A DNA stretch of 64,000 nt, from contig CAVTCL010000018.1 in NCBI GenBank assembly GCA_963733175.1, positions 39,859-103,858 of the forward strand, in the 5' to 3' direction. Positions 1 through 12,414 of the stretch are shown in pieces (within the stretch, counting starts at the first letter, position 1; every line of letters begins with the position of its first letter). Under the pieces are notes generated by a model. It had not been told where the DNA came from. It saw only the letters and a list, made by a program, of their open reading frames with translations, and did no database searches. Position numbers and translations under genes: made by a program. Origin of the DNA: an uncultured Actinomycetota bacterium. Lineage in GTDB: Bacteria; Actinomycetota; CALGFH01.

Positions 1-133
1 GCTCACGGGCCAGGCGGACCGCCTGCTCGCCGTCGCCGGCCTCGCCGACCACGGTGTGCCCACCCTCCTCGAGGGTCTCGACGATGTCCACCCGGATCAG
101 GACCTCGTCCTCGGCGACGAGCACACGCGCCAT
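1..133 (-). CDS. pdtaR: Response regulator N-terminal receiver domain, PdtaR/ANTAR-type (runs off window edge)
   Basis: Manual translation from ATG at 133: MARVLVAEDEVLIRVDIVETLEEGGHTVVGEAGDGEQAVRLARE, resembling actinobacterial PdtaR receivers. GGAGCAGG RBS upstream. The ANTAR domain itself would lie outside the window. Confidence 0.75.
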   Translation of the reverse strand, partial: MARVLVAEDEVLIRVDIVETLEEGGHTVVGEAGDGEQAVRLARE

Positions 134-225
134 CCTGCTCCTTCCACCAGATGCGTCGGGTAGGCATCGTAGCCCGGAAGCGGCCTGACGCGGAGTCCGA
201 TCTTCGTCCAGGGCCCGCCGGACCG

Positions 226-3200
226 TCATCCGGTGCCCTCGTGGGCCTGCTCGATGGCCGCGACCTCGGCCCGGGGGGCGACCCGCCAGAAGGCGGCGTG
301 GGTGCGCTCCCAGTCCTCCAGGATCTCGCCGGCCACCGCCGAGCCGGTCAGCTCGTGGTGGGCGACGACCAGCTCGCGCAGGAAGACCAGCTCGATCTCG
401 TCCGGCCGGCGGGCCAGCACGAGCTCGTCGTTGAGCTGGTCGAGGGCGGTGCCGTCGGGGTCGTAGAGGAACAGCTCGCCGCCGCTCATGCCGGCCCCGA
501 GGTTGCGGCCGACCGGGCCGAGCACGATCACCGACCCGCCGGTCATGTACTCGCCACCATGGTCGCCGACGCCCTCCACCACCGCGGTGGCGCCCGAGTT
601 GCGCACCGCGAAGCGCTCCCCGGCCCGCCCGGCGCAGAACAGCTCGCCCCGGGTCGCCCCGTACAGTGCCGTGTTGCCGATCAGGACCGGGGCGCCGGCG
701 TCGTCGTCCGGCGGGCGGACGACGATGCGACCGCCTCCCATCCCCTTGCCGACGTAGTCGTTGCAGGCGCCGGTGAGACGCAGGTCAATTCCCGGGGCCA
801 GGAAGGCGCCGAAGCTCTGCCCGGCCGTCCCTTCCAGCTCGATCCGGGCCCGGCCGGCGGGCGGCCGGGAGCCGAACGCCTTGCCGACGGCCACGCCGAG
901 CCGGGCCCCGACCGCCCGGTCGGTGTTGCTGATCGGGTACTGGAGGTGGACCAGGTCGCCGTCGCGGAGGCCCGGCCAGGCGTCGTCGTGGATCTGGTCG
1001 CCCAGCTCGGAGCGGGGACGCTGGATGGGGTCGGAGGCGACGAACCGCCTCGCCGGGGCGGCGCCCTCCTCGGCCCCGGTGGCCAGCAGCGGGGACAGGT
1101 CGAGGCTGTCGGCCCGGGGGTCGCCGGTGGGGCGCTGGGCGAGCAGGTCGACCCGGCCGACGGCCTCGTCCAGGCCGCGCAGCCCCAGGGAGGCCAGCAG
1201 CTCCCTGACCTCGGTGGCCACGTACTCGAGGTAGTGGACGACCATCTCGGGGGTGCCGGTGTACTTGGCTCTGAGATCCGGCCGCTGGGTGGCGATGCCG
1301 ACCGGGCAGTTGTCCTGGTGGCAGGTCCGGACCATGAGGCAGCCCTCGGCCAGCAGGGCGGCCGTGCCGAAGCCGTACTCGTCGGCCCCGAGCAGGGCCG
1401 CCACCAGCACGTCGCGGCCCGTCTTGAAGCCGCCGTCGACCCGGACCTTGCAGCGCGAGCGCAGGTTGTTGGCCACCAGGGCCTGCTGGGTCTCGGCCAG
1501 CCCCAGCTCCCAGGGCCCGCCGCCGTGCTTGATCGAGGACAGCGGGCTGGCCCCGGTGCCGCCGTCGGCACCGGAGATCATGACCACGTCGGCCAGCGAC
1601 TTCACCACCCCGGCGGCGACCGTGCCCACCCCGGCCTCGGCGACCAGCTTGACCGACACCTCGGCCTCGGGGTTGGCCTGCTTCAGGTCGAAGACGAGCT
1701 GGGCCAGGTCCTCGATGGAGTAGATGTCGTGGTGGGGCGGGGGCGAGATCAGGGCCACCCCCGGCTGGGTGTGGCGCAGGCGGGCGATCTCGCCGCTGAC
1801 CTTGTGGCCGGGGAGCTGGCCGCCCTCGCCGGGCTTGGAGCCCTGGGCGATCTTGATCTGCAGCTCGACGGCGTTGGCCAGGTAGGCCGGGGTGACCCCG
1901 AAGCGGCCGGAGGCGACCTGCTTGATGGCCGAGCTGCGCTCGGTGCCGAAGCGGGCCGGGTCCTCGCCGCCCTCGCCGCTGTTGGAGCGGCCGCCGACCC
2001 GGTTGAGGGCGATGGCCAGGGTCTCGTGGGCCTCGGGGGACAGCGACCCGAGGCTCATGGCCGCGGTCGAGAACCGGGCCAGGATGTTGGCCGCCGGCTC
2101 GACCTCCTCCAGCGGCACCGGGGGGCCGGCCGGGGTGGTGGCCAGCAGGTCGCGCAGGGCGGCCGGCCGCCGCTCGTTGACCAGGCTGGCGAAGTGCCGG
2201 TAGCGCTCGAACCCGCCCCCCTTGACCGCCTGCTGGAGCAGGTGGGCGCCGCGCTTGGAGCCCTTCATCTCGGCCCCTTCGCGGACGGTGAAGTGGAGGG
2301 CCTGCATGACCTCGGGGTTGGTGGCGTGGTACTCGCCGCCGGGGCGGTGCTTGAACCAGCCCGGGTTCTCCAGCCGCGCCACCTCGGCCTGGCCGGCCCG
2401 GTGCCGGTCCAGGGCGTCGCAGGCCAGCTCGTCGAACCCGATCCCGCCGAGCGGGGACGGGGTGCCGGCGAAGCAGAGGTCGACGACCTCCTCGTCCAGG
2501 CCGACGGCCTCGAAGATCTGGGCCCCCCGGTAGGCGTCGAGCACCGAGATGCCCATCTTGCTCATGATCTTGAACACGCCCTCCTCGAGGGCGCTGCGGT
2601 AGCGGTCCTGGGCGGCCGCCGGGTCCGGGTCGACGGTGGCCGCGGTGGCCAGGGTGAGCCGGGGGCAGATGGCGTCGGCCCCGTAGCCGAGCAGGGTGGC
2701 CGCCTGGTGGGAGTCGACCGGCTCCCCGGTGTCGGCGACCAGGCTGGTCCGGGTGGCCAGGCCCTCCCGGAGGAGCCGCTGCTGCACCGCCCCGACAGCC
2801 AGCAGCGACGGCACCGGCACGTTGTCCGGCCGTGGGCGTCCGCTCCGGCGTCCGAGACGACCAGCAGGCAGGTGCCGTCGCGGACGGCCGCGGCCGCCTC
2901 CTCGCCGAGGCGCAGGCAGGCGGCGCGCAGCCCGTCCGGCCCTTCGGCCGCCGGCCAGGTGGCGTCCAGCACCCGCGGGCACAGCCCGAGGGCCGGGTCG
3001 CCGAGGGACTCCAGCCCGTCGGGGGTGAGGAGGAAGCCGTCCAGCTCGACCATCCTGGCCGCGTCCGGCTCCTCGGTGAGCAGCGGGTGGCGGCAGCCGA
3101 GCAGCGTCCTGCTCGACAGCACGTGGCGCTCGCGCAGGTGGTCGATGGGCGGGTTGGTGACCTGGGCGAAACGCTGGCGCAGGAAGTGGCCGACCGGCCG

Positions 3201-4741
3201 GGAGGTGGCCCCGAGCACGGCCGGGGGCGTGTCGTCGCCCATGGAGGCCGTCGGCTCCTTGCCGGCGGTCGCCATCGGCCGCAGCACGGTCGTGACCAGC
3301 TCCCGGGTGAAGCCGAAGGTGGCCTGGGCGGCGACCAGGCGGCGCTCGTCGGTGGCCGCGTCGACCGGCCGGCCGGCGTCGACGGCGCGCAGGTGCTCGG
3401 CCACCCAGGCGCTCCAGGGCCGGCTGGCGGCCAGCTCGTCCTTGATCTGGCCGTCGGTGAGCAGCCCGCGCTCGGGGTCGACGCAGAGCATCTGCCCGGG
3501 CCCGAGCCGGCCCCGTTGCACCCGGCCACGGCCGGCGGTGTCGACCGCGCCGGCCTCCGACGCGCACACGACCAGGCCGTCCTCGGTGGCCTCCCAGCGC
3601 ATCGGCCGCAGCCCGTTGCGGTCCAGCGCCGCCCCGACCAGGTGGCCGTCGGTGAAGACCAGGCCGGCGGGGCCGTCCCAGGGCTCGGTCAGGCAGGCGT
3701 GGTAGCGGTAGAAGTCGCGCAGGTCCTGGCGGTCGTCTCCTGGCAGGGGCTCGACCGCCGGGACCAGCATGGCCAGGGCGTGGCGGAGGTCCCGCCCGCC
3801 CCTGACCAGCAGCTCCACCGCGTTGTCGAGCTTGCCGGAGTCGGAGCCGTCCGGGTCGAGCACCGGCCGCAGCAGGTCCTCGTCCAGCTCGCCGGCCCCC
3901 AGGTGCCCCTCCCGGGCCCGCATCCAGGCCACGTTGCCGTCGAGGGTGTTGATCTCGCCGTTGTGGCAGAGGAAGCGGAACGGCTGGGCGCGCTCCCAGG
4001 AGGGCGTGGTGTTGGTGGAGTAGCGCTGGTGGAACACGGCGAAGGCGACCGCGAAGGCGGGGTCGGCCAGGTCGGGATAGAAGGCGGCGAGCTGGTCGGC
4101 CGCGCACAGCGCCTTGTAGGTGACCGTCCGGGTCGAGCAGGAGGCGAGGTACAGGGCGACTCCGGCGGCCCGGGCGGCCGCGGCGGCCCGCCGGGCGGCC
4201 CGGAAGCAGCGGCGCTCGGCGTCCTCGGGGTCCACCGCTCCGGGACCCTCCGTCCCCGGCGACCCGGAACACGGCCTGCTCGATGGCGGGAGCGTTCGCC
4301 CTCGCCACCTCGCCGAGGGCGCCGTGGTCGACCGGGACCAGCCGCCAGCGGAGCAGCTCCAGCCGCTCGGCGACCAGCGCCTGCTCGACCAGCCGGCGGG
4401 CCTCCTTGGCCTCCTCGGGGGCGCGGGGGAGGAAGGCCATGGCCACCCCGAGCCGACCGGGGGGTCCGGGATCGGGCGCCGGCGGCCGGGGGGCCGTCGA
4501 AGAACCCGTCGGGCAGCGGGACCAGGACGCCGGCGCCGTCCCCGGTCCGGGCGTCGGCGGCCACCGCGCCCCGGTGCCGGAGGCGCTCGAGCCCGCCCAG
4601 GGCGGCGTCGAGGATGGCCCGGCTGGCGCGGCCGTGGACGTCGGCCACGAAGCCGATGCCGCAGGCGTCGCGCTCGTCGCGGCGGCGGTCGTACAGCGAC
4701 CGGCCGCGCTGGCCGGGGCCTGGCAGCAGGTGGTCCGTCAT
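226..4741 (-). CDS. gltB: Glutamate synthase large subunit (split over several frames by frameshifts)
   Basis: ERDACGIGF N-terminal nucleophile Cys; HQRYSTNT, HNGEINT and EPWDGPA in the GATase domain; IKQVASGRFGV, QGSKPGEGGQLPGHKV and CLMVRTCHQDNCPVG (3Fe-4S); C-terminal GXGXG domain. Frame changes near 4450, 4235 and 2825. Confidence 0.95.
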
Positions 4742-4787
4742 CTCGCCTCCGGAGGTACTGCTCGGGCGGCGACGGAGCCGAGCGGTG

Positions 4788-4845
4788 TGGACATCGATGT
4801 CCAGGGACACGAAAACGGCGCCGCCTGGGGCGAGCGCCGTTGCTC
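4788..4845 (-). promoter_or_regulatory. ANTAR-type dual hexaloop RNA element in the gltB leader
   Basis: Minus strand: GAGC-AACGGC-GCUC (4845-4832) and UGGAC-AUCGAU-GUCCA (4803-4788). Both are 6-nt loops with A1 and G4. Confidence 0.7.
4808..4841 (-). terminator. Terminator-like hairpin overlapping the first ANTAR hexaloop
   Basis: AACGGCGCUCGCC-CCA-GGCGGCGCCGUU followed by UUCGUG. Its 5' arm uses the loop and 3' stem of the first hexaloop, so the two folds are mutually exclusive. Confidence 0.6.
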
Positions 4846-4855
4846 TCGAACCATG

Positions 4856-4884
4856 AGCGTACGGAGGTGGGTCCAGCACGTCAA
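4856..4884 (-). promoter_or_regulatory. Sigma-A-type promoter of gltB
   Basis: TTGACG-17 bp-TACGCT on the minus strand, immediately upstream of the hexaloop leader. Confidence 0.7.
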
Positions 4885-4922
4885 CACGCTGGTGCGAGCG
4901 GTCGTCCGGCAGCCCCGGGCGG

Positions 4923-7900
4923 CTATCGGGCGCCGCCGGTCCTGGACCGCCGGGCGACCACGGCGCCGGCCCCGGCGGCCAGCGCCAGCAGCACCAGTCC
5001 CACGCCGATCAGCCGCAGCAGCGGGGCCGGGTCGAGCCGGGTCTGGGCCGGGGGGGCGGGCAGGCCGGGCACCGGCTCCAGCCGCATGGCCTGCTTGGGG
5101 ACCAGGCCGAGGCGGACGGCCAGGCGGCCCAGCGCGGCCGGCCGGGCCGGGCCGCCGTTGGCGGGCAGTTCGAGCACGGCCCGCTCGAACGGCTGGCGCA
5201 TGGCCCCGTCCGGCATCATCTGCGGGACGCCGAGAGGCCGGCCGAAGCGGTCGCGGGCCCGCCGGAAGTCCTCGGCCGACGCCGACGCCGGGTCGGTGCC
5301 CAGGTAGGCGCGGGCGATCAGCTCGTCGCTGAGCAGGGTCCGCAGCTGCCGGTTGGTCACCGGCGGCCGCACCGACGGCAGCGGGATGTTGGCGTCGGCC
5401 ACCGCCTCGATGTCCAGCTGGGCCAGCAGCGGCGGCAGCTCGATGGGCCGCACGGCCGGCGGGCCGCTGGCGGTCGGGACCGACCCCAGCACCATGGTGT
5501 CGAACGCCTGCAGGGCCGGGCCGTCGCTGGTCCAGACCGAGCCGAGCGGCCGGCCAAGGACCATCTTGCCGCCGGCCGCCCGGTAGGCGGTGTGGAAGGT
5601 CCCCGCCTGGCTGTCCACGACCCGGTAGCCGCCACAGGCCGAGCCGTTGACGTTGGAGAACAGGCCGTCGGGGACGGGGAGGCTGTCGGCGACCGGGTCG
5701 AGCGGGGCGGCGTCGACGCGCCACAGCTCCACCCCGGACAGGCTCCGCGAGGGATGGGCGGCCATCCTGGTCCCGTGCTGGCGGACCCAGGCGGCCAGCG
5801 ACGGGGTCATGGGACCGCCCCCGGCGCTCCCGCCGGTCAGCACGAAGTAGCGCACGCCGGCGGCGTGGGCGGCCGGCCCGTCGGCGAACTCGGTCACGGT
5901 GACGCCGGCGGCCAGCAGCCGGGCCCGGTCGTCGGGCCCGCTGGCGTTGACCGCCGAGCAGTCCGGCACCTGGTCGCCGACGGTGGCCACCAGCCGCCCG
6001 AGGCCGTCGTCGGCCTGGCCGCCGTACCTCGCCCCCCAGTCGACCCCCTGGGCCACGAGCAGCCCGGCCAGCGCCACCGCGACCCCGGCCCCGATCCACC
6101 GGGGCGGTACCCCGGCGGTCCCCCGGTCCCACCGGACCGCCGCGGCCGCCCAGCCGCCGGCCAGCGCCAGGCTGACGGCCGCGGCGGGCACGGCGAACGG
6201 GAGGGCCTGGGAGGCCGGGTACCCGAGCGCGACCGCCCCCACGGCCCCGGCGGCCGTGGTCAACGTCCAGGCGAGCGCCCGGGCCGGCCCGGGGTGGTCC
6301 CCCGGTGGGTCGGGGTCGGCATCCGGCCTGGCGCCGGACCGGTGGCGCCAGGCCAGGATGGCCGCGGCCAGGCCGGCGGCCACCAGCAGCCAGGTGAGCC
6401 GGTCGTCGGCCAGGGAGGCGACGACGGACCCACGCCCGGGGGGCCGGCCGAGGAGCCATGCGGCCTGCCCGGCGCCCAGCTCCTGGCCCGCCACCCAGAC
6501 CGGCAGGACCAGCCAGAGGCCGACCGCGAGCCCGAGCGCGGCCATGTCCCGCCAGGCCTCCTGGTAGCGCCCCTCCAGCAGCTCGGCCACCACCGGCACC
6601 GCCAGCACCGGCAGGGCCAGCGGGCTGACCAGCAGCGCCAGCCCCCCACCGGCGGCCACCAGCGGCAGCCACCGCAGGGTCGGCCGCGCCGGCACCCCCC
6701 AGGCCAGGGCCAGCGTCACCAGGGCGAGCACCACCGCCAGGATCGTCCCGGTCGCCGCCCGCCCGCTCCGCACGAGCACGGGGTCGAGGGCCACCAGCAG
6801 CCCCGCCAGCGCCGCTCCCCCCAGCCGCCAGAGCCGGTCGCGCCCCTGGCGTTGCGGCGGGGCCGGACCCGGCCCGGCCGCCGCACCGGTACCGGGTCCG
6901 ACCCGCATGAGGAGCAGGAAGAGCAGCACCGTCAGCCCAACCACACCCGCCAGCAGGTACCGGCTCGGCACCCTGGCGTCCCTGATCGCCCCCTCCAGCG
7001 AGGTCCCAGCCTCCGCCCCCCGCAACACCACCCCCACACCCAGCGCATACAACGGCTCGATCGGCCCCACCCGCGGGTCCTGCACCACCAGGCCGCCCTC
7101 GCTCCCCCCGGCAGCCCGCACCACCGCCACCTCACCCGCCCGGCTGTCCGGACCCCCACCCCCACGCCACCCCGCCGCCACCAACCCCACCACCGCAACC
7201 ACCAGCACCACCAGCGCCAGCAGCCCAACCCCCCCAGCCCCAACCCGTGGCGCCGCCACCCCGGCCGCCCGTGCCTGCCGCGCCTCGGCACGAGCCGCCC
7301 CCGCGCCGCCGCCCGAGCCTCGCGCTGCCGCCCAGCCTCCGCCCGGGCACCCTGCGCACCTCGGCCTGCTCGGCCCGCTTTCGCCCAGCCTCGGCGCGGT
7401 CCGCCTCCCGAGCCTGCGCCCGAGCCGCCTTGGCCTCCAGCGCGTGCCTGCCGAGCCGCGGCACTGGCGGCTCGGCGCTCCTCGCACCTGGCCACCCTGG
7501 CCGCTCGAGCCTCGGCCCGAGCCTCCCGCCGGACCTCGGCCTTCGCCGCTTTCGCCTGCCCGGCCTCCACCCGAGCCACCCGCCGGGCCTCGGCTTGGGC
7601 CGCCTTCGCCTGCCGCGCCTCTTCCTGGGCGGCGGCCCGTGCCTCCGCCTGCGCTTCTTCGCCTGGCGGGCCTCCTCCTGCGCCGCCGCCCGTGCCGCCG
7701 CTCCGCCTTGCGGGCCTCCTCCCGAGCGGCGGCCTGGGCTTCTGCCTGCGCCGCCTCACCCGGCGGCCTCCTCCGAGCGGCCGCCGGCTTCCGCCTGGGC
7801 CGCTTTGGCCTGGCGGCCCTCCTCCTGGCGGCGGCCCGTGCCTCCGCCTTGGCCGCCTTCGCCTGGCGGGCCCTCTCCTGCTCGGCCGTCCGTGCCTCCG

Positions 7901-9110
7901 CCTTGGCGGCCTTGGCCTCGCGGGACCTCTCCTGCGCGGCCTTTCGGGCGTCGGTTCGTGCCTGGCGGGATTCCGCTCGGGCGACCTGGCGGGCTTCGGC
8001 CTGGGCGGCCTTGGCCTGGCGGGATGCTTCGCGGGCTGCGGTGCGTGATTCGGCGCGGGCGGCGCGGACACGGGCGACCTCGGCGCGGGCGGCCTGGCGG
8101 GCCTCCTGGCGGGCCGCCCGCTCCTGGCGGGTCTGCTCGCGGCGGGCCTCGGCGCTGGCGGCCTTGGCCCGACCCGCCGCGGCACGGTCGGCGCGGCGTG
8201 CTTCCGCCTCGGCTTCCTTGGCCCGGCGGGCCTCGGCGCGACCCACGGTGGTGCGGCGCTTCCCGGCGGGCTGGCCGGTCTTGCCTGGGGCCTGCCGTCC
8301 CCACCGGCGCAGCCGCTCGAAGGTGGCCTCGTCCATCCCCGGCGCGACCTGGCCGGGGCCGACCACCGGTTCCAGCTCGCGCCCGCTCAGCCCGATCAGC
8401 CGCCCCGACTCGGCGACCGGCAGCCCCTGGCCGGCCACCTCCACCGCCGCGGCCGCCGCTGCCCCTTCGGCCTGGCCCGGTGCCGCGCGGTCGTCCGCCG
8501 CCTCCTCCGCCCCGGCCTCCGGCTCCTCCAACTCCCGCGCCGGCGGGGACCCCGCCTCCACCCCCTGTAGCGGCGGCTCCGCGGGAACCGGCGTCGTCGC
8601 CCCGGTGATCGCTGTCCAGAGCTCGCCGATCTGGAGGGGGCGGTAGAGGACGGCGCGTGTCGGCCCGGCGGGGACGGCCTCGGCGTGCTCGCCCTCCTGG
8701 AGGAGGACCACGGTGCGACCCAGGAACCGGCCGTCGATGACGGCGAAGGTGCGCTCGTGGAGGTTGGGGGGCATGTCGACGATGACCACGTCGGCGTGGC
8801 GGATGGCGCCGTCGAGCTCCTCGCTGTACCAGTCGAGCACCCGGACCCCGCCCGGGGTCTCGATCAGGGAGCGGAGGGCGCCGGCGAGCATGTTGTCGCG
8901 GGAGACCAGGACGACCCGGAGGGTGGGGCCCTCGGGGTCGGGAACCGGTGGGCGGGCCCGTGGGCCGGGGCCCGGGAGCGGCGGGCGCTCGGGCCCGTTG
9001 GAGCGGACCGGGCGGTCGGGCCCCGGCTCGGGGCGGGATGCGGACGGCTCGGTGGTCGAGGCGGTGCGGCCCCCGGACAGGCGCTCGACCCAGCCGCGGC
9101 GGTCGCTCAC
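4923..9110 (-). CDS. Large multidomain membrane protein: receiver-like domain, Ala/Arg/Glu-rich coiled coil, GT-C (ArnT/PMT-like) membrane region, extracellular repeats, C-terminal TM
   Basis: GTG start overlaps the sortase stop (GTGA). LRVVLVSRD...VVIVDMPP...LYRPL CheY-like pattern; AEAR/QAKAA repeats; many TM helices; two G-R-P-L-G...Q-x-F-[DE] units; TM plus basic tail. Likely local frameshifts in the repeat tract. Confidence 0.65.
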   Translation of the reverse strand: MSDRRGWVERLSGGRTASTTEPSASRPEPGPDRPVRSNGPERPPLPGPGPRARPPVPDPEGPTLRVVLVSRDNMLAGALRSLIETPGGVRVLDWYSEELDGAIRHADVVIVDMPPNLHERTFAVIDGRFLGRTVVLLQEGEHAEAVPAGPTRAVLYRPLQIGELWTAITGATTPVPAEPPLQGVEAGSPPARELEEPEAGAEEAADDRAAPGQAEGAAAAAAVEVAGQGLPVAESGRLIGLSGRELEPVVGPGQVAPGMDEATFERLRRWGRQAPGKTGQPAGKRRTTVGRAEARRAKEAEAEARRADRAAAGRAKAASAEARREQTRQERAARQEARQAARAEVARVRAARAESRTAAREASRQAKAAQAEARQVARAESRQARTDARKAAQERSREAKAAKAEARTAEQERARQAKAAKAEARAAARRRAARPKRPRRKPAAARRRPPGEAAQAEAQAAAREEARKAERRHGRRRRRRPARRRSAGGGTGRRPGRGAAGEGGPSRGPAGGSGGGRAGESGEGRGPAGGSGRGSSGQGGQVRGAPSRQCRGSAGTRWRPRRLGRRLGRRTAPRLGESGPSRPRCAGCPGGGWAAARGSGGGAGAARAEARQARAAGVAAPRVGAGGVGLLALVVLVVAVVGLVAAGWRGGGGPDSRAGEVAVVRAAGGSEGGLVVQDPRVGPIEPLYALGVGVVLRGAEAGTSLEGAIRDARVPSRYLLAGVVGLTVLLFLLLMRVGPGTGAAAGPGPAPPQRQGRDRLWRLGGAALAGLLVALDPVLVRSGRAATGTILAVVLALVTLALAWGVPARPTLRWLPLVAAGGGLALLVSPLALPVLAVPVVAELLEGRYQEAWRDMAALGLAVGLWLVLPVWVAGQELGAGQAAWLLGRPPGRGSVVASLADDRLTWLLVAAGLAAAILAWRHRSGARPDADPDPPGDHPGPARALAWTLTTAAGAVGAVALGYPASQALPFAVPAAAVSLALAGGWAAAAVRWDRGTAGVPPRWIGAGVAVALAGLLVAQGVDWGARYGGQADDGLGRLVATVGDQVPDCSAVNASGPDDRARLLAAGVTVTEFADGPAAHAAGVRYFVLTGGSAGGGPMTPSLAAWVRQHGTRMAAHPSRSLSGVELWRVDAAPLDPVADSLPVPDGLFSNVNGSACGGYRVVDSQAGTFHTAYRAAGGKMVLGRPLGSVWTSDGPALQAFDTMVLGSVPTASGPPAVRPIELPPLLAQLDIEAVADANIPLPSVRPPVTNRQLRTLLSDELIARAYLGTDPASASAEDFRRARDRFGRPLGVPQMMPDGAMRQPFERAVLELPANGGPARPAALGRLAVRLGLVPKQAMRLEPVPGLPAPPAQTRLDPAPLLRLIGVGLVLLALAAGAGAVVARRSRTGGAR

Positions 9111-9799
9111 CGTCCGGCCTCCTTGCCGCCGTCGGCCACCCTGATGGCCGACACGACCAGGTTGTCGCGGTAGCTGCCCTGGGCCCGGTCGAAGGTGCCG
9201 GCGCAGGTGATGAGGCGCAGCACCGGCGCGGTGGTGGCCCCGTAGACCTCGTCGTCCGGCAGCGACTGCTTGGGGTAGCTGGCCAGCGACTCGACCCGGA
9301 ACCGGACCACCCGGCGGTCGGCCCTGACCACCCGGATCTGGTCGCCGGGACGCAGGTCGCGGAGCCGGTAGAACACGGCCGGGCCGGTCCTGGAGTCGAC
9401 GTGGCCGGCGATCACGGCCGGCCCGAGCTGGCCTGGCTGGGGACCGCCGGTGAACCAGCCGGCGACCTGGTAGTCGTCGGGCACCTGCATGGTCCCGTCG
9501 GCTTCGAGCCCCAGCCGGACCAGGGGCGAGGACACGCCGATGGCCGGGATCTCCACCCGCACCGGCGGCGAGGAGGGCAGGCGGCGCCACGACCCGACGG
9601 GGAAGTCGATGACCTCGGTGGTCCGGGTCGGGCCGGCCGGCGGCGGGGTGGTCGCCCCGGCGACCGCCGACCGGCTGGCAGGGGGAGCGGCATGCGACAC
9701 CCGCTCCCCCTCCGGCTGGCCCGCGGCACAGCCGGCCGAACCGGCGACCAGCAGCCCCAGCACGACCACCCCCCGGCGGACCCGTTCACCCATGGTCAT
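9107..9799 (-). CDS. Class F sortase
   Basis: PVRVEIPAIGV, PGQLGPAVIAGHVDS (His), LRLITCAG (Cys), YRDN; N-terminal hydrophobic anchor with Cys. Confidence 0.9.
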   Translation of the reverse strand: MTMGERVRRGVVVLGLLVAGSAGCAAGQPEGERVSHAAPPASRSAVAGATTPPPAGPTRTTEVIDFPVGSWRRLPSSPPVRVEIPAIGVSSPLVRLGLEADGTMQVPDDYQVAGWFTGGPQPGQLGPAVIAGHVDSRTGPAVFYRLRDLRPGDQIRVVRADRRVVRFRVESLASYPKQSLPDDEVYGATTAPVLRLITCAGTFDRAQGSYRDNLVVSAIRVADGGKEAGR

Positions 9800-9815: not shown

Positions 9816-10658
9816 CTAGCCGGTCGACCGCCGCTGCTGGACCACGAACCCGGCGGCCGCGGCCAGGCCGCCGCCGATCAGCAGGAACAGCGCGAACCTC
9901 CGACCGCCCGGGCTGGAGCTCGGGCTGGTCCCGCCGGCGCCGGTGGCGACCCCGCCGGCGGCGGACACCGCGGAGCCGGCGTCGCGGATGTCGAGCAGCT
10001 CGAGCTTCTGGCCGATGCCGCCCACCGCGACCAGCGACGAGATGGAGCCGCTGGGCAGCTGCACGTCGCTGGCCTTGGCCAGCACCTCGCCGCTGCCGGC
10101 CTTGCGGACCTCGACGTCGACCGAGCCCGCCGGGACCTCCTGGTAGTCGCTGGCCGACGGGAAGCGCGCGTTCGAGATGAGCACGTCGCCGTTGGTGACC
10201 AGGTCCGCCGCGCCCTCGCCGGGGATGGCCTGGATGAACCGCACCTTGCTCTTGCTGCTGGCGGGGCGCGACAGGTCGTCGGTCAGCAGGGCCGCCTTGA
10301 CGGAGGTGAGCTGCCCGTACACGGCGACGGTGTAGGCCTTGCCGGCCTCCAGGTCGACCGTGGCCGCGATCACCGGGGGCGAGTCGACCGGCTCACCGGC
10401 CTCGCGCACCTCGACCTTGAACTTCCCGGGCTTGACCTTGAGGTAGTCCGAGACGGTCTTGTACGGCACGCCCTTGAGCTGCAGCTTGCCGTCGACGTAG
10501 ACGACGTAGACGTCGCCCTTGAGCAGGCCCGGCGCGAAATGGGCGACCCGCACCAGCGCCTGGTCGTCCGGCTGGGCGCCGGAGGCGGCTCCGGGCATGG
10601 TGAGCAGGGCCGCGGTCATTGCGGCCAGGGCCGCGGCGGCCAGTCGTCGGCGAAACAT
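9816..10658 (-). CDS. DUF4397-domain secreted protein with a probable class F sortase sorting signal
   Basis: Signal peptide; VRVAHFAP and KVRFIQA repeats; GGVATGAGG followed by TM and basic tail (QQRRSTG). Confidence 0.85.
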   Translation of the reverse strand: MFRRRLAAAALAAMTAALLTMPGAASGAQPDDQALVRVAHFAPGLLKGDVYVVYVDGKLQLKGVPYKTVSDYLKVKPGKFKVEVREAGEPVDSPPVIAATVDLEAGKAYTVAVYGQLTSVKAALLTDDLSRPASSKSKVRFIQAIPGEGAADLVTNGDVLISNARFPSASDYQEVPAGSVDVEVRKAGSGEVLAKASDVQLPSGSISSLVAVGGIGQKLELLDIRDAGSAVSAAGGVATGAGGTSPSSSPGGRRFALFLLIGGGLAAAAGFVVQQRRSTG

Positions 10659-10959
10659 TCGCCCCTCCTCGTTGGTCGTTCGTCCGGGGGGACGCGAACG
10701 ACGACGAGTGGTGCGCCCCCCGCGATCCCGCCACGTATGCCGTCACGAGCCGATTCGGTCGTCATTATCGTCGCTGACCCCTCCTGCGAGCGCCCCCAAT
10801 TCTGCGTAGTTCGGATCAGAAGAGCAGGTGAACGGGGTAGTATTCGTTCACCCAATTCTCGTGATACCTGAGCCTCTGGTCACTTGTGCGAGGCTTGAGG
10901 TTTCTGGGCGACTTATTCCAACAGTTCATCGCCGCCCATCAGACGGCTACGCTTGCTCC

Positions 10960-12414
10960 ATGACTGACGTTGCCCCGCCGGTACGGCGCCGGCTGTCCGA
11001 CGACGCGATCGAGCATCTCCACAGCCTGATGGCGGGCTGGCAGCTCATCGCCGACCTCGCCTTCGCCGACCTGCTGCTGTTCCTGGCCGTCGAGGGCAGC
11101 GAGAGCTTCCGCATCGTCGGCCAGCTCCGGCCCTACACCGCCCGGACCCTCTACCCGGTCGACCTGGTCGGCGAGGTGGTCAAGCCGACCTGGCACCCGT
11201 ATGTGGAACGGGCCTGGCGGGAGGGCCGGCGCCAGCGCTCGCTGGAGCCGATCCTGATCGACGCCGAGCCGGTCCGGGTCGAGACCGTGCCCGTCCGCCA
11301 CCAGGGCGAGATCGTGGCCGTGCTCAGCGTCGAGTCCCCGGAGATCCCGGCCCGCCCCACGGGCCGGCTGGAGGCGTCCTACCTGGGCGCGGCCGAGGCG
11401 CTGCTGGAGATGGTGGCCACCGGCACCTTCCCGTTCGTGGAGGCCATCGACCCGACCGCCTCGCCCAGGGTCGGCGACGGCCTGGTCGTGCTCGACGCCA
11501 GCGGCCGGGTCGAGTTCGCCAGCCCCAACGCCACCTCGGCCTTCCGGCGCATGGGCACCAACGCCCTGCCGTTCGGCCAGCCGCTCCCCCACCGGGCCGC
11601 CATCCTGGTCGCCGAGGCCATGGCCGGCGGGCGGCCGGTCGAGTCCGAGATCGAGGCCGCCGGGGCGGTGACCGACGTCCGGGTGGTCCCGCTGCTGCGC
11701 GACACCGGGCGCCGCGGCGCCCTCGTGCTGGTCCGGGAGGCGACCGAGCTGCGCCGCCGCGACCGGGTCATCTCCCGGCGCGAGGCGACCATCCGCGAGG
11801 TCCACCACCGGGTCAAGAACAACCTCCAGACGGTCGCGTCCCTGCTGCGGCTCCAGGCCCGCCGGCTGGGGGACCACCCGCAGGCGGTGGCCGCCCTGGA
11901 GGACTCGGTCCGGCGGATCACCTCGATCGCCCTGGTCCACGAGACCCTGACCGAGGAGTTCGAGGGCGCGGTCGACATGGCCGACGTGGCCAGGCGGGTG
12001 GTCAGGATGCTGGAGGGCTCCCTTGGCCACGAGGACGCCCAGATCGAGCTGCACACCGCCTCGGTGCGGGTGGACGCGGCCGTGGCCACCCCGCTGGCGG
12101 TGGTCCTGAACGAGCTGGTCCAGAACGCGGTCGAGCACGGCCTGGGCGAGGGGCGCGGGAAGGTCACCGTCGAGCTGCGCGGCGGCGGCGACCAGCCGGT
12201 CGTCCTCGAGGTCCACGACGACGGGGCGGCGGGAGCGGGCTCAACCGGCCGTCGACAGCCCCGGGGCGGCCTCAGCTCCGGGGGTGGGCTCGGGTTGCGG
12301 CTGGTCAGGGCGCTGGTCGAGGAGGAGCTGAACGGCCAGTTCACGCTCTCCCATCCCGCCGGCCGGGGCAGCATCGCCACCGCCGTCATCCCCCCGGTCG
12401 AGCGGGCGGACTGA
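10960..12414 (+). CDS. pdtaS: PdtaS-like cytoplasmic sensor histidine kinase (N-terminal GAF-like, PAS, HisKA_2, HATPase)
   Basis: WQLIADLAFADLLL N-terminus, SPRVGDG, EVHHRVKNNLQTVASLLRLQ, NELVQNAVEHG, GLGL. TACGCT lies 6 nt before the ATG (leaderless-like). Confidence 0.88.
   Translation: MTDVAPPVRRRLSDDAIEHLHSLMAGWQLIADLAFADLLLFLAVEGSESFRIVGQLRPYTARTLYPVDLVGEVVKPTWHPYVERAWREGRRQRSLEPILIDAEPVRVETVPVRHQGEIVAVLSVESPEIPARPTGRLEASYLGAAEALLEMVATGTFPFVEAIDPTASPRVGDGLVVLDASGRVEFASPNATSAFRRMGTNALPFGQPLPHRAAILVAEAMAGGRPVESEIEAAGAVTDVRVVPLLRDTGRRGALVLVREATELRRRDRVISRREATIREVHHRVKNNLQTVASLLRLQARRLGDHPQAVAALEDSVRRITSIALVHETLTEEFEGAVDMADVARRVVRMLEGSLGHEDAQIELHTASVRVDAAVATPLAVVLNELVQNAVEHGLGEGRGKVTVELRGGGDQPVVLEVHDDGAAGAGSTGRRQPRGGLSSGGGLGLRLVRALVEEELNGQFTLSHPAGRGSIATAVIPPVERAD

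What the first reader, a model, noticed from the sequence alone, without database searches (positions are those of the whole stretch)
1..4884. ANTAR antitermination switch on gltB, co-transcribed with a PdtaR-like regulator: candidate autoregulated nitrogen-assimilation circuit
Seen: promoter TTGACG-17-TACGCT; hexaloop GAGC-AACGGC-GCUC; an alternative terminator-like stem that consumes that hexaloop; a second hexaloop UGGAC-AUCGAU-GUCCA 28 nt downstream; then gltB and, 92 bp after it, a PdtaR-like receiver gene. A PdtaS-like kinase lies at 10960-12414. Known: ANTAR proteins (EutV, NasR/NasT, PdtaR) bind twin A1/G4 hexaloops. In the classic Firmicute/proteobacterial leaders the terminator overlaps the second loop, and actinobacterial ANTAR RNAs have been described mostly as translational. 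Inference: here the geometry is inverted (the terminator overlaps the first loop, the second loop lies beyond it), and glutamate synthase plus the regulator itself would be under positive-feedback ANTAR control.
Basis: partly seen in the sequence, partly recalled or inferred. Interest (0 to 1): 0.8.

Follow-up and report, generated by a model that had tools for sequence, protein, structure and literature searches.

The report
Conserved glutamate-synthase leader with ANTAR-type hairpins
The stretch in front of a glutamate synthase gene encodes a conserved RNA switch (a small hairpin competing with a terminator-like hairpin, plus a second hairpin) whose loops look like binding sites for the RNA-binding regulator encoded just after the gene, which would give that orphan regulator family a concrete candidate target in nitrogen assimilation.

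Summary
The promoter TTGACG-17-TACGCT, hairpin P1 (GAGC-AACGGC-GCUC), a 12-bp terminator-like hairpin T that consumes the P1 loop, and hairpin P2 (UGGAC-AUCGAU-GUCCA) 28 nt further on are all present. gltB follows, then a gene with REC and ANTAR domains whose best solved match is Rv1626 (PdtaR). A PdtaS-type kinase lies 6 kb upstream.

Twin A1/G4 hexaloops alone are no more than chance in this 74% GC genome. Conservation makes the case.
- P1/T precedes gltB in at least 10 families of Actinomycetota.
- T covaries, and the outer P1 pair changed G-C to A-U twice independently.
- P2 exists only in the window's family, where its stem covaries and its loop keeps A1 and G4 in 60 of 60 leaders.
- In that same family the regulator gene follows gltB.

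Best reading (about 0.5): an ANTAR-controlled attenuator with an added translational layer.

Main doubts:
- There is no upstream recruitment hairpin.
- P2 lies beyond the U-run.
- P1/T also occurs without P2 and without an adjacent ANTAR gene.
- One family has G at loop position 1.

Binding is untested. ANTAR control of glutamate synthase genes was already predicted in a Firmicute, so this is a new variant of a known kind.

The parts
4856..4884 (-). Promoter: -35 TTGACG (4884-4879), 17-nt spacer, -10 TACGCT (4861-4856)
   Evidence: Read. TTGACG-17/18-TANNNT is present in 19 of 19 family leaders. The -10 ends 7-18 nt (mostly 10-12) before GAGC, so P1 sits at the extreme 5' end of the mRNA. The simple consensus scan does not call it.
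4832..4845 (-). P1: 4-bp hairpin GAGC/GCUC with hexaloop AACGGC; candidate antiterminator
   Evidence: Among 46 distinct gltB-anchored leaders, pair 1-14 is GC 42, AU 2 (double change in two different families), GU 1, AC 1. Pair 2-13 is AU 41, GU 4, CU 1. Loop position 1 is A in 42 and G in 4; G4 is kept in 46 of 46. Energy is -4.0 kcal/mol. P1 forms first in prefix folds and is displaced once about 35 nt are made.
4812..4841 (-). T: terminator-like hairpin (4841-4829 with 4825-4814, U4833 bulged, loop 4828-4826) and U-run 4815-4812
   Evidence: -20.8 kcal/mol. It is the MFE structure. Loop length and inner stem vary with pairing kept. Motif position 7 covaries: CG 32, AU 4, GC 1, plus wobble pairs. 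The U-run is 4 in 39 of 60 family leaders and 0-2 in 8 of 60. By eye it is mostly 4-7 in the other families.
4805..4814 (-). Distal anti-Shine-Dalgarno segment UUUCGUGUCC
   Evidence: RNAalifold pairs it with GGAGGCGAGA in 19 and in 60 leaders. 97.2% of cells are paired, with one-sided changes only. Single-sequence folds prefer a proximal partner instead.
4788..4803 (-). P2: 5-bp hairpin UGGAC/GUCCA with hexaloop AUCGAU
   Evidence: Stem covaries: pair 52-104 is UA 30, GC 12, CG 1, UG 5; pair 53-103 is GC 47, AU 8, GU 5. Loop is A1 60/60, G4 60/60, C3 59/60, while positions 2, 5 and 6 vary. The closing C-G pair is kept in 60/60.
4765..4775 (-). Segment X (CCGUCGCCGCC here, CCGGCGUCYGCC in relatives): near copy of the T 5' arm, complementary to the T 3' arm
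   Evidence: The 7 core pairs with the T 3' arm are 95.7% paired over 60 leaders, with one-sided changes only. Single-sequence folds place the partner of the SD in this region. Its role is inferred.
4739..4750 (-). Shine-Dalgarno GGAGG (4750-4746) and gltB start codon (4741-4739)
   Evidence: GGAGGCG is nearly invariant in the family. The predicted probability that the SD is unpaired is about 0.19.
226..4741 (-). gltB (glutamate synthase large subunit), read in three frames in this assembly
   Evidence: Pfam GATase_2, Glu_syn_central, Glu_synthase and GXGXG are spread over three frames. Relatives have open frames of about 1500-1660 aa. The frame breaks lie near 4475-4446, 4250-4235 and 2830-2820, at the spots where contigs of other runs differ by indels.
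1..133 (-). 5' part of the REC-ANTAR response regulator gene (PdtaR-like; 193 aa from this ATG, continues beyond the window start)
   Evidence: L001:1052-1633:- has PF00072 (4.9e-26) and PF03861 (1.6e-20). Best solved relative is 1s8n, Rv1626 (6.1e-49); EutV 6wsh scores 7.8e-36. The phospho-Asp and the residues matching EutV R142, K143, K147 (as R), Y164 and M172 are kept. It is the only REC-ANTAR among the 5 ANTAR genes found in the genome.
134..225 (-). gltB-regulator spacer (92 nt) with a -10-like GCTACGAT
   Evidence: The spacer is 23-202 nt in the 13 family genomes read. By eye, GCTACNNT is kept in most of them and is missing from the 23-nt spacer of G012. No terminator was seen.
10828..12414 (+). 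PdtaS-type histidine kinase
   Evidence: PF12282 GAF_PdtaS 1.7e-35, PAS_4, HisKA_2, HATPase_c.

Best explanation
Positions 4884-4739 (minus strand) are the promoter and 5' leader of a glutamate synthase gene.

The leader is a protein-dependent attenuator. At the very 5' end of the transcript, the weak hairpin P1 (hexaloop AACGGC) and the strong terminator-like hairpin T are mutually exclusive.
- Shown: both structures are kept by compensatory changes across families.
- Inferred: the phosphorylated PdtaR-like REC-ANTAR regulator binds the nascent P1 hexaloop. This blocks invasion by the T 3' arm and lets RNA polymerase pass the U-run.

In the window's family a second layer was added. The U-run region doubles as an anti-Shine-Dalgarno segment. 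A second ANTAR-type hexaloop hairpin, P2, abuts it. A copy of the T 5' arm (X) lies before the Shine-Dalgarno sequence.
- Inferred: a regulator bound at P1 and P2 keeps the T 3' arm free to pair with X, or otherwise disturbs the sequestering helices. That would open the ribosome site.

Because the regulator gene follows gltB on the same strand, read-through would also raise the regulator (positive feedback), on top of a possible promoter of its own.

The signal would enter through the PdtaS-type kinase 6 kb upstream. The ligand is unknown.
For: - The regulator has REC and ANTAR domains, with the phospho-Asp and EutV RNA-contact residues conserved. It is the only REC-ANTAR among the 5 ANTAR genes found in the genome.
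- P1 and T are alternative structures, and both are supported by natural variants. In 46 gltB-anchored leaders the outer P1 pair changed G-C to A-U in two different families (G084 in f9, G304 in f8). G1-to-A and C14-to-U each occur 3 times and coincide twice (my hand Fisher estimate, about 0.009, from the counts). T covaries at motif position 7.
- The T 5' arm (motif positions 8-12) never changes except one C-to-U at position 10, while its 3' partner takes wobble changes 12 times. This fits a second role for the 5' arm.
- P2 stem covaries. Its loop keeps exactly the ANTAR signature: A1 60/60 and G4 60/60, with positions 2, 5 and 6 free. P1 and P2 share C-ANCGNN-G.
- P2 and the adjacent regulator gene co-occur. 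In family f1 the regulator follows gltB directly in 13 of 21 genomes; one more has a 2.6-kb gap and the rest are limited by contig ends or lack this gltB. It also follows in 12 of 12 metagenome contigs long enough to tell. In 18 loci of other families there is no P2 (genus g16 of f9 has its own AGUGGG hexaloop hairpin) and no ANTAR gene in the roughly 5 kb held after gltB.
- All 15 motif-bearing genomes of other families that were tested have at least one ANTAR gene. In G024 and G313 the only one is REC-ANTAR, about 12 kb from gltB.
- A single hexaloop is the minimal ANTAR binding unit (PMC8934654, abstract and Discussion read).
- ANTAR leaders are common at nitrogen-assimilation genes, including glutamate synthase genes of Desulfotomaculum reducens (PMC3369931, passages).
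- Loss of PdtaS lowers nitrogen-assimilation genes in M. smegmatis (bioRxiv 10.1101/615575, passages).
Against: - No binding, termination or expression data exist.
- The promoter leaves no room for an upstream recruitment hairpin. EutV needs two hairpins 5-12 nt apart, and extending the linker by 20 nt abolishes its antitermination. Here the linker is 26-30 nt.
- P2 is made after the U-run.
- P1/T occurs in at least 9 other families without P2 and without an adjacent ANTAR gene.
- Loop position 1 is G in families f50 and f29: 5 leaders, of which 4 are in the 46 counted. This would turn P1 into a 5-bp stem with a tetraloop.
- A1/G4 hexaloop hairpins occur at chance frequency genome-wide.
- Forcing P1 costs on average 8.9 kcal/mol and does not clearly free the SD in thermodynamic models (0.19 against 0.26 unpaired).
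- The U-run has only 4 U here and is lost in 8 of 60 family leaders. The simple scan calls no terminator.
- A -10-like element in the gltB-regulator spacer may drive the regulator independently.
- ANTAR genes were found in every genome tested, so their co-occurrence with the motif says little.
Confidence: 0.5

Rival explanations
1. P1/T is a genuine attenuator of gltB, but it is read by something other than the ANTAR regulator. Candidates are another RNA-binding protein, a small ligand, or a property of initial transcription. The ANTAR protein binds at most P2, a family-specific add-on.
For: - P1/T is conserved in at least 10 families, while P2 and the adjacent regulator gene are confined to one.
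- P1 loop positions A2 and G5 are invariant (46/46), which is not part of the ANTAR rule. Position 1 is G in f50 and f29.
- The geometry has no recruitment hairpin and fails the published linker limits.
Against: - No other candidate regulator is conserved next to gltB; the downstream genes differ between families.
- A 14-nt hairpin is too small for known ligand-binding aptamers (established knowledge).
- P1 and P2 share C-ANCGNN-G.
- A weak hexaloop hairpin overlapping a terminator arm is the textbook ANTAR antiterminator (PMC3369936, passages).
Confidence: 0.25
2. T is a constitutive 5'-terminal stem-loop that stabilises the mRNA or acts as a fixed partial terminator. Control is only translational, through sequestration of the Shine-Dalgarno sequence. 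The P1 pairing has no function.
For: - T sits within a few nucleotides of the predicted 5' end.
- The U-run is short or lost in part of the family.
- The SD is predicted paired in nearly all leaders, and long-range helices are compatible with all 60 sequences.
- RNA-library contigs span T, though contigs cannot show ends or rule out DNA.
Against: - Two independent G-C to A-U double changes keep the outer P1 pair.
- GAGC, which lies outside T, is conserved across families.
- The T stem sequence is conserved far beyond what a stabiliser needs.
- By eye, most leaders of the other families show 4-7 U after T, several with the ribosome site right behind.
Confidence: 0.12
3. The conserved sequence is a DNA operator for a transcription factor overlapping the transcription start, not an RNA element.
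For: GAGC-N6-GCTC and AACGGCGC...GCGCCGTT are inverted repeats placed just downstream of the -10.
Against: - The distance between the long repeat arms varies from 3 to 30 nt or more.
- Changes are strand-specific wobble pairs (C-G to U-G, A-U to G-U), which would be mismatches on the other strand or in DNA.
- The 6-nt spacer of the short repeat is asymmetric yet invariant.
Confidence: 0.03

Closest known systems
Dual-hexaloop ANTAR antiterminator leaders (E. faecalis eut, Klebsiella nasF, P. aeruginosa amiE; Ramesh et al. 2012, Walshe et al. 2022)
   Same: - Short hairpins with hexaloops carrying A1 and G4, and conserved closing pairs.
- One hairpin is mutually exclusive with an intrinsic-terminator-like hairpin.
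- A REC-ANTAR regulator and a nitrogen-metabolism operon are involved.
   Different: - Here the terminator overlaps the 5' hairpin, not the 3' one.
- There is no upstream recruitment hairpin.
- The linker is 26-30 nt rather than 5-12 nt.
- The second hairpin lies beyond the U-run, next to an anti-SD segment.
- In most families there is only one hexaloop.
Predicted ANTAR substrates linked to glutamate synthase genes in Desulfotomaculum reducens (PMC3369931, passages seen)
   Same: The same kind of target gene and the same regulator family are proposed.
   Different: - It is a Firmicute with the classic dual-hairpin geometry.
- No sequence relation was tested.
- The details are in figures and supplements that I could not see.
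Actinobacterial ANTAR-target RNAs bound by Rv1626/PdtaR (bioRxiv 10.1101/660928; PMC8164766)
   Same: - The same phylum and the same regulator family.
- A translational component is likely.
- The signature is a hexaloop with A1 and G4.
   Different: - The published motifs overlap the RBS or start codon and were curated to linkers of 2-25 nt.
- gltB and glutamate synthase are not mentioned in the main texts searched.
- Here the hairpins lie 38-95 nt upstream of the SD, and one competes with a terminator.
Classical four-segment attenuators (trp-type 1:2 / 2:3 / 3:4 logic; recalled, no call)
   Same: Four conserved mutually complementary segments (T 5' arm, T 3' arm, X, SD region) could pair in alternative combinations.
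   Different: - There is no leader peptide.
- The choice would be set by a protein on segment 1.
- The 2:3 and 3:4 pairings are only compatible with the data, not shown by covariation.

Membership tests
ANTAR-target RNA (dual hexaloop motif) | Two stem-loops with at least 3 bp each | tested here: met
   P1 has 4 bp and P2 has 5 bp. P2 is supported by covariation. P1 is supported by two independent double changes.
ANTAR-target RNA (dual hexaloop motif) | Hexanucleotide loops with A at position 1 and G at position 4 | tested here: met
   P2 has A1 60/60 and G4 60/60. P1 has A1 42/46 and G4 46/46. The exceptions (G1) are in families f50 and f29.
ANTAR-target RNA (dual hexaloop motif) | Short linker between hairpins (5-12 nt in eut leaders; 2-25 nt in the actinobacterial curation) | tested here: not met
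   The linker is 28 nt in the window and 26-30 nt in 60 of 60 family leaders. The limits come from PMC3369931 and PMC8164766 (passages).
ANTAR-target RNA (dual hexaloop motif) | The 3' hairpin overlaps the terminator 5' arm (antitermination class), or the motif overlaps the RBS or start codon (translational class) | tested here: not met
   T overlaps the 5' hairpin P1. P2 ends 38 nt before the SD.
ANTAR-target RNA (dual hexaloop motif) | Bound by an activated ANTAR protein; loop mutants lose binding | not testable with these tools
   This needs EMSA, SPR or similar.
ANTAR-target RNA (dual hexaloop motif) | Scores with a published ANTAR covariance model | not tested
   No Rfam family matched at E up to 10.
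PdtaR-type REC-ANTAR response regulator | Receiver domain followed by an ANTAR domain, about 200 aa | tested here: met
   PF00072 covers residues 4-112 and PF03861 covers 131-183 of 193 aa. The protein aligns end to end with Rv1626 (1s8n), 6.1e-49.
PdtaR-type REC-ANTAR response regulator | Phospho-acceptor Asp and RNA-contact residues (EutV R142, K143, K147, Y164, M172) | tested here: met
   My reading of the alignment to 6wsh gives D53, R, K, R (for K147), Y and M all in place. The residue list is from PMC8934654.
PdtaR-type REC-ANTAR response regulator | A cognate PdtaS-type kinase in the genome | tested here: met
   Window 10828-12414 has GAF_PdtaS at 1.7e-35 plus PAS, HisKA_2 and HATPase_c. 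Phosphotransfer itself is not testable here.
Intrinsic terminator / transcription attenuator | Stable G+C-rich hairpin kept by covariation | tested here: met
   -20.8 kcal/mol. The inner stem and loop vary with pairing kept, and position 7 covaries.
Intrinsic terminator / transcription attenuator | U-rich tract directly after the hairpin | tested here: inconclusive
   The run is UUUU here and has 4 U in 39 of 60 family leaders, but 0-2 in 8 of 60. By eye it is mostly 4-7 U in other families. The consensus scan does not call it.
Intrinsic terminator / transcription attenuator | A mutually exclusive antiterminator structure | tested here: met
   P1 shares 10 of its 14 nt with the T 5' arm. Both structures are supported by variants.
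Glutamate synthase large subunit (GltB) | GATase_2, central, FMN (Glu_synthase) and GXGXG domains in one open frame | tested here: inconclusive
   All four domains are present, but they are spread over three frames in this assembly. The frames are intact in relatives. The breaks coincide with indel-variable spots in other runs.

The most novel reading that the evidence does not exclude
The 45-nt P1/T module is a minimal ANTAR antiterminator with a single hexaloop at the 5' end of the transcript. It would be the conserved direct target of the orphan PdtaS-PdtaR two-component system in several classes of Actinomycetota, and it would gate glutamate synthase. In the window's family the regulator gene moved into the operon it controls. 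The leader then gained a second hexaloop and an anti-SD relay, giving two-tier (transcription plus translation) autoregulated control.
Probability: 0.3. Interest if true: 0.75.

Novelty: new variant of a known kind. Interest (0 to 1): 0.6.

Why it matters
- PdtaS/PdtaR is a widely conserved actinobacterial two-component system whose direct RNA targets and physiological logic are still poorly defined. A short, strongly conserved leader in front of a central nitrogen-assimilation enzyme, physically linked to the regulator gene in one family, gives a concrete target that can be tested by binding and transcription assays.
- It would also be a natural test of the proposal that one hexaloop is enough for ANTAR action.
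- The geometry fails the linker filter quoted from one published ANTAR-RNA search, so that search may have passed over it.
- Whoever the binding partner is, the P1/T element is a gltB attenuator that Rfam does not hold and that I did not find in the papers searched. It is spread over at least 10 families.

Tried and rejected
- Rfam scan of 4600-5000 at E up to 10 gave only two weak, irrelevant matches (Xoo5, asponA) on the other strand.
- The simple promoter/terminator scan called nothing.
- Regex search of the window's own genome found P1/T only at gltB, so no regulon could be derived.
- The genome-wide count of A1/G4 hexaloop hairpins is at chance level, so a motif-only search for further targets was dropped.
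It was mostly chance hits in other phyla; only 11 of 120 loci were gltB leaders.
- Thermodynamic test of coupling between P1/T and SD access: forcing P1 changed the mean SD unpaired probability only from 0.19 to 0.26. A first hexaloop finder picked a spurious UUCG/UGGA hairpin and was replaced by column-based counts. A first variant count was polluted by off-target matches and was redone.
- Upstream regions of the REC-ANTAR genes of five other-family genomes show no convincing P1- or P2-like hairpin. These genes follow another gene closely.
- Genes downstream of gltB in other families show no conserved candidate regulator.
- Presence of ANTAR genes in motif-bearing genomes (15 of 15 tested) says little, because every genome tested had them.
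- Sequencing runs: all four runs laid are contigs. RNA-library contigs cover 4638-4910 and 4479-4824, but they cannot show starts, ends or strand, and may be DNA.
- Supplements of the ANTAR papers are closed. The tables of predicted actinobacterial ANTAR RNAs may already list gltB leaders, and I could not check.
- Literature searches for a gltB leader or attenuator in Actinobacteria listed nothing relevant. PMC1262725 holds no mention of glutamate or gltB.

Full report
WHAT IS THERE

The finding lies on the minus strand. Reading 5' to 3':
- -35 TTGACG at 4884-4879, a 17-nt spacer, -10 TACGCT at 4861-4856.
- Ten nt further on is hairpin P1: GAGC 4845-4842, loop AACGGC 4841-4836, GCUC 4835-4832.
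- A 12-pair hairpin T (4841-4829 with 4825-4814, U4833 bulged, loop CCA) uses the whole P1 loop and the P1 3' arm. A run of four U follows (4815-4812).
- Hairpin P2 (UGGAC-AUCGAU-GUCCA, 4803-4788) starts 28 nt after P1 ends.
- GGAGG lies at 4750-4746 and the gltB ATG at 4741.

ViennaRNA gives P1 -4.0, T -20.8 and P2 -6.1 kcal/mol. In prefix folds P1 forms first and is displaced by T once about 35 nt are made. T and P2 are in the minimum-energy fold.

THE GENES

- gltB carries all four glutamate synthase Pfam domains, but in three reading frames.
- The next gene starts at 133, 92 nt after the gltB stop, and runs off the window. In the genome (the window is G000:C18:39859-103858; a 77% complete assembly of 35 contigs) it encodes 193 aa. 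These hold a receiver domain (4.9e-26) and an ANTAR domain (1.6e-20).
- Its best solved relative is Rv1626/PdtaR (1s8n, 6.1e-49, aligned end to end), followed by EutV (6wsh, 7.8e-36).
- My reading of the EutV alignment shows the phospho-acceptor Asp in place. The residues that Walshe et al. found to contact RNA (R142, K143, K147, Y164, M172) are also in place, with K147 as R.
- The genome holds four more ANTAR genes. The two checked by Pfam are GAF-ANTAR, and none of the four aligns with a receiver. The gltB-linked gene is therefore the only REC-ANTAR found.
- ORF 10828-12414 (+) is a PdtaS-type kinase (GAF_PdtaS 1.7e-35, PAS_4, HisKA_2, HATPase_c).

IS IT MORE THAN CHANCE?

Not as a bare motif.
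- A1/G4 hexaloop hairpins with stems of at least 5 bp number 3379 in this 74% G+C genome, against 3550-3588 in shuffles. Pairs of them within 2-35 nt number 64 against 54-68.
- The simple scan calls no promoter or terminator, and Rfam holds nothing relevant.

The case rests on comparison with other genomes.

CONSERVATION IN THE WINDOW'S FAMILY (f1)

- Thirty gltB loci came from 41 related genomes. The N-terminal query hit 29 of them, and 22 of the 29 upstream regions hold GCAAYGGCGCTC. Nineteen of these are from f1, G000 included.
- In those 19 the promoter TTGACG-17/18-TANNNT is present in 19 of 19. The -10 ends 7-18 nt before GAGC, so P1 is at the very 5' end of the mRNA and no upstream hairpin can exist.
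- A metagenome scan with a family-specific pattern added 62 loci. Note that this pattern fixes GTGTCC, part of the anti-SD segment. Together the two sets give 60 distinct leaders.
- P2 covaries: pair 52-104 is UA 30, GC 12, CG 1, UG 5; pair 53-103 is GC 47, AU 8, GU 5.
- The P2 loop keeps A1 in 60/60, G4 in 60/60 and C3 in 59/60, while positions 2, 5 and 6 take 3, 4 and 3 letters. The closing C-G pair is invariant.
- P1 and P2 thus share C-ANCGNN-G. The P1-P2 linker is 26-30 nt in all 60.

CONSERVATION BEYOND THE FAMILY

- The pattern GAGCAAYGGCGCTC-N3-30-GCGCC occurs in 55 of 401 genomes sampled from the phylum, usually once per genome. The reversed control pattern occurs in 7. These counts include six unpublished genomes: G183, G390, G231, G066, G243 and G269.
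- Of 20 such loci fetched, 19 lie in front of gltB. L078 and L082 come from the unpublished G066 and G183.
- To avoid the bias of the pattern, I took 40 further gltB upstream regions from genomes that lacked it, none of them unpublished. Twenty-five hold the motif within 3 mismatches.
- P1/T therefore precedes gltB in at least 10 families: f1, f3, f5, f8, f9, f11, f28, f29, f50 and f63.
- Named records with gltB-leader hits are titled Nitriliruptoraceae, Nitriliruptorales, Actinomycetota or Actinomycetes bacterium, and one Lysobacterales bin.
- In these families the leader is often minimal: P1/T, a U-run (mostly 4-7 by eye) and, in several, the ribosome site right behind it. P2 is missing. One genus of f9 has a different hexaloop hairpin, AGUGGG.

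VARIANTS THAT TEST THE TWO STRUCTURES

Counts are over 46 distinct gltB-anchored leaders. Two further leaders were dropped by my fold filter. One sequence, GCGGAACGGCGCUC, departs at two P1 pairs and may not be a true member.
- T is supported by compensatory changes at motif position 7 (CG 32, AU 4, GC 1, plus wobble pairs). It is also supported by free variation of loop length and inner stem with pairing kept.
- P1 pair 1-14 is GC 42, AU 2, GU 1, AC 1. The two A-U cases (AAGC...GCUU) lie in different families (G084 in f9, G304 in f8).
- G1-to-A and C14-to-U each occur three times and coincide twice. My hand Fisher estimate from these counts is about 0.009. G1 is not part of T.
- P1 pair 2-13 is AU 41, GU 4, CU 1.
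- The T 5' arm at positions 8-12 changes only once (a C-to-U at position 10). Its 3' partner shows 12 wobble changes. This points to a second constraint on the 5' arm.
- Against the ANTAR rule, loop position 1 is G in family f50 and in one f29 genome: 5 leaders, of which 4 are among the 46.

SYNTENY

- In f1 the regulator gene follows gltB on the same strand, with a 23-202 nt gap, in 13 of 21 genomes (G000 included). G011 has a 2.6-kb gap.
- In the other seven, contigs end, no gltB was found (G010), or gltB is a different, gltD-linked type without the leader (G016).
- Twelve of 12 metagenome contigs with at least 5.6 kb downstream also carry the regulator gene; 50 were too short to tell.
- None of the 18 other-family gltB loci has an ANTAR gene in the roughly 5 kb held after gltB.
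- A REC-ANTAR gene (46-54% identical to this one) does lie 12-19 kb away in G024, G313, G120, G279 and G291. It is the only ANTAR gene in G024 and G313.
- All 15 motif-bearing genomes of other families that I tested have an ANTAR gene. Since none tested lacked one, this says little.

THE REST OF THE LEADER

- RNAalifold, on 19 and on 60 leaders, predicts T, P2 and a long-range helix between UUUCGUGUCC (4814-4805, directly after T) and GGAGGCGAGA at the ribosome site. That helix is 97.2% paired, with one-sided changes only.
- A further conserved segment X (CCGGCGUCYGCC; 4775-4765 here) is a near copy of the T 5' arm. It can pair with the T 3' arm (95.7% paired, one-sided changes only).
- Single-sequence folds pair the SD with this proximal region instead.
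- Neither long-range pairing is shown by double changes. Forcing P1 costs 8.9 kcal/mol on average and raises the predicted SD accessibility only from 0.19 to 0.26.

HOW IT MOST LIKELY WORKS

Shown:
- P1 and T are alternative, selectively maintained structures at the 5' end of the gltB mRNA.
- P2 is a maintained hairpin with an ANTAR-type loop.
- The regulator is a sequence-competent REC-ANTAR protein encoded in or next to the operon.

Inferred:
- The activated regulator binds nascent P1 and prevents T.
- In f1 it also binds P2, and the freed T 3' arm and/or the bound protein opens the sequestered ribosome site.
- Read-through raises the regulator itself.

Published support, with what I saw of each paper:
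- A single hexaloop is the minimal ANTAR binding unit (PMC8934654; abstract and Discussion read).
- ANTAR leaders cluster at nitrogen genes, including glutamate synthase genes of Desulfotomaculum reducens (PMC3369931, passages; PMC3369936, passages).
- Loss of PdtaS lowers nitrogen-assimilation genes in M. smegmatis (bioRxiv 10.1101/615575, passages).
- ANTAR activation raises nitrogen and sulfur assimilation genes (bioRxiv 10.1101/660928, passages).

Against:
- The same papers show that EutV needs two hairpins 5-12 nt apart and fails when 20 nt are added.
- Here there is no recruitment hairpin, the linker is 28 nt, and P2 comes after the U-run.

COMPARISON AND NOVELTY

- The element works like an ANTAR antiterminator. 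As a family member it fails two defining features that I tested: linker length, and which hairpin overlaps the terminator.
- ANTAR control of glutamate synthase genes has already been predicted in a Firmicute.
- My searches found no description of this leader. gltB is absent from the main texts of PMC8164766, 10.1101/660928 and 10.1101/615575, and 'glutamate synthase' from the first two. PMC1262725 mentions neither. The listings hold nothing relevant.
- I rate it a new variant of a known kind.

OTHER RESULTS

- The three frame changes of gltB in this assembly fall at indel-variable spots. Contigs of other runs differ there by -13 at 4461-4472, by 37 extra letters at 4243, and by a net -2 at 2828-2847. 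Relatives have intact frames. An assembly or consensus artefact is more likely than a dead gene, but this is not shown.
- A GltD-type small subunit domain (PF14691) was found in only 4 of 21 family genomes, and next to gltB only in G016. The leader-bearing enzyme may therefore work without the classical small subunit (inference).
- RNA-library contigs cover the leader (4638-4910 and 4479-4824). They cannot show ends or strand and cannot exclude DNA.

Noticed in passing
window 226-4741 (-), near 4475-4446, 4250-4235 and 2830-2820: gltB is read in three frames in this assembly, whereas relatives have one open frame of about 1500-1660 aa. Contigs of other sequencing runs differ from the window by indels at the same three spots: -13 at 4461-4472, +37 at 4243, and a net -2 at 2828-2847. 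It is either an assembly or consensus artefact, or a strain-specific broken gene.
   Followed up: partly
G000 whole genome; family f1 genomes: The GltD-type small-subunit domain PF14691 was not found in G000. It was found in only 4 of 21 family genomes, and next to gltB only in G016. G016 has a divergent gltB with neither the leader nor the adjacent regulator. The leader-bearing glutamate synthase may be a single-subunit (ferredoxin-type) enzyme.
   Followed up: partly
window 134-225 (-); L209-L220: A -10-like GCTAC(G/C)(A/G)T sits about 35 nt before the regulator start codon in most of the 13 family genomes read (by eye). It is missing from the 23-nt spacer of G012. It may be an internal promoter for the regulator.
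   Followed up: partly
L070, L075, L076 (family f9, genus g16), about 15-35 nt after T: These leaders carry a different hairpin after the terminator, with loop AGUGGG (A1, G4) and compensatory stem changes (GGGGGACG/CGUUCCCC against GGGCG/CGCCC). Other f9 genera lack it.
   Followed up: no
L080 (G120), after T: A second terminator-like hairpin with its own U-run follows the first in tandem before the ribosome site.
   Followed up: no
gltB codons for the CGIGF motif (window about 4660-4640; seen in 8 of the 20 loci listed): The codons around the catalytic Cys (TGCGGNATCGGNTTCGT) can fold into a hairpin with an A1/G4 hexaloop purely because of the protein motif. This is a likely false positive for ANTAR-motif searches.
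   Followed up: no
window 4923-9590 (-) and 9816-10658 (-): A long ORF ending 80 nt before the leader has no Pfam match and ends in a hydrophobic tail; the tail is conserved in same-genus relatives. A DUF4397 protein lies between it and the kinase.
   Followed up: no
G000:C18:103923-105206 (-), just beyond the window end: A further ANTAR-domain gene lies directly outside the window's 3' end. Two GAF-ANTAR paralogues lie on C35 and C17, and a short ANTAR ORF on C9.
   Followed up: partly
L323-L327 (G024, G313, G120, G279, G291): In other families the REC-ANTAR gene follows closely behind another gene, whose 3' end looks alike by eye in three of the five loci (L325-L327). It lies 12-19 kb from gltB, which suggests an old shared neighbourhood from which family f1 moved the regulator next to gltB.
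   Followed up: no
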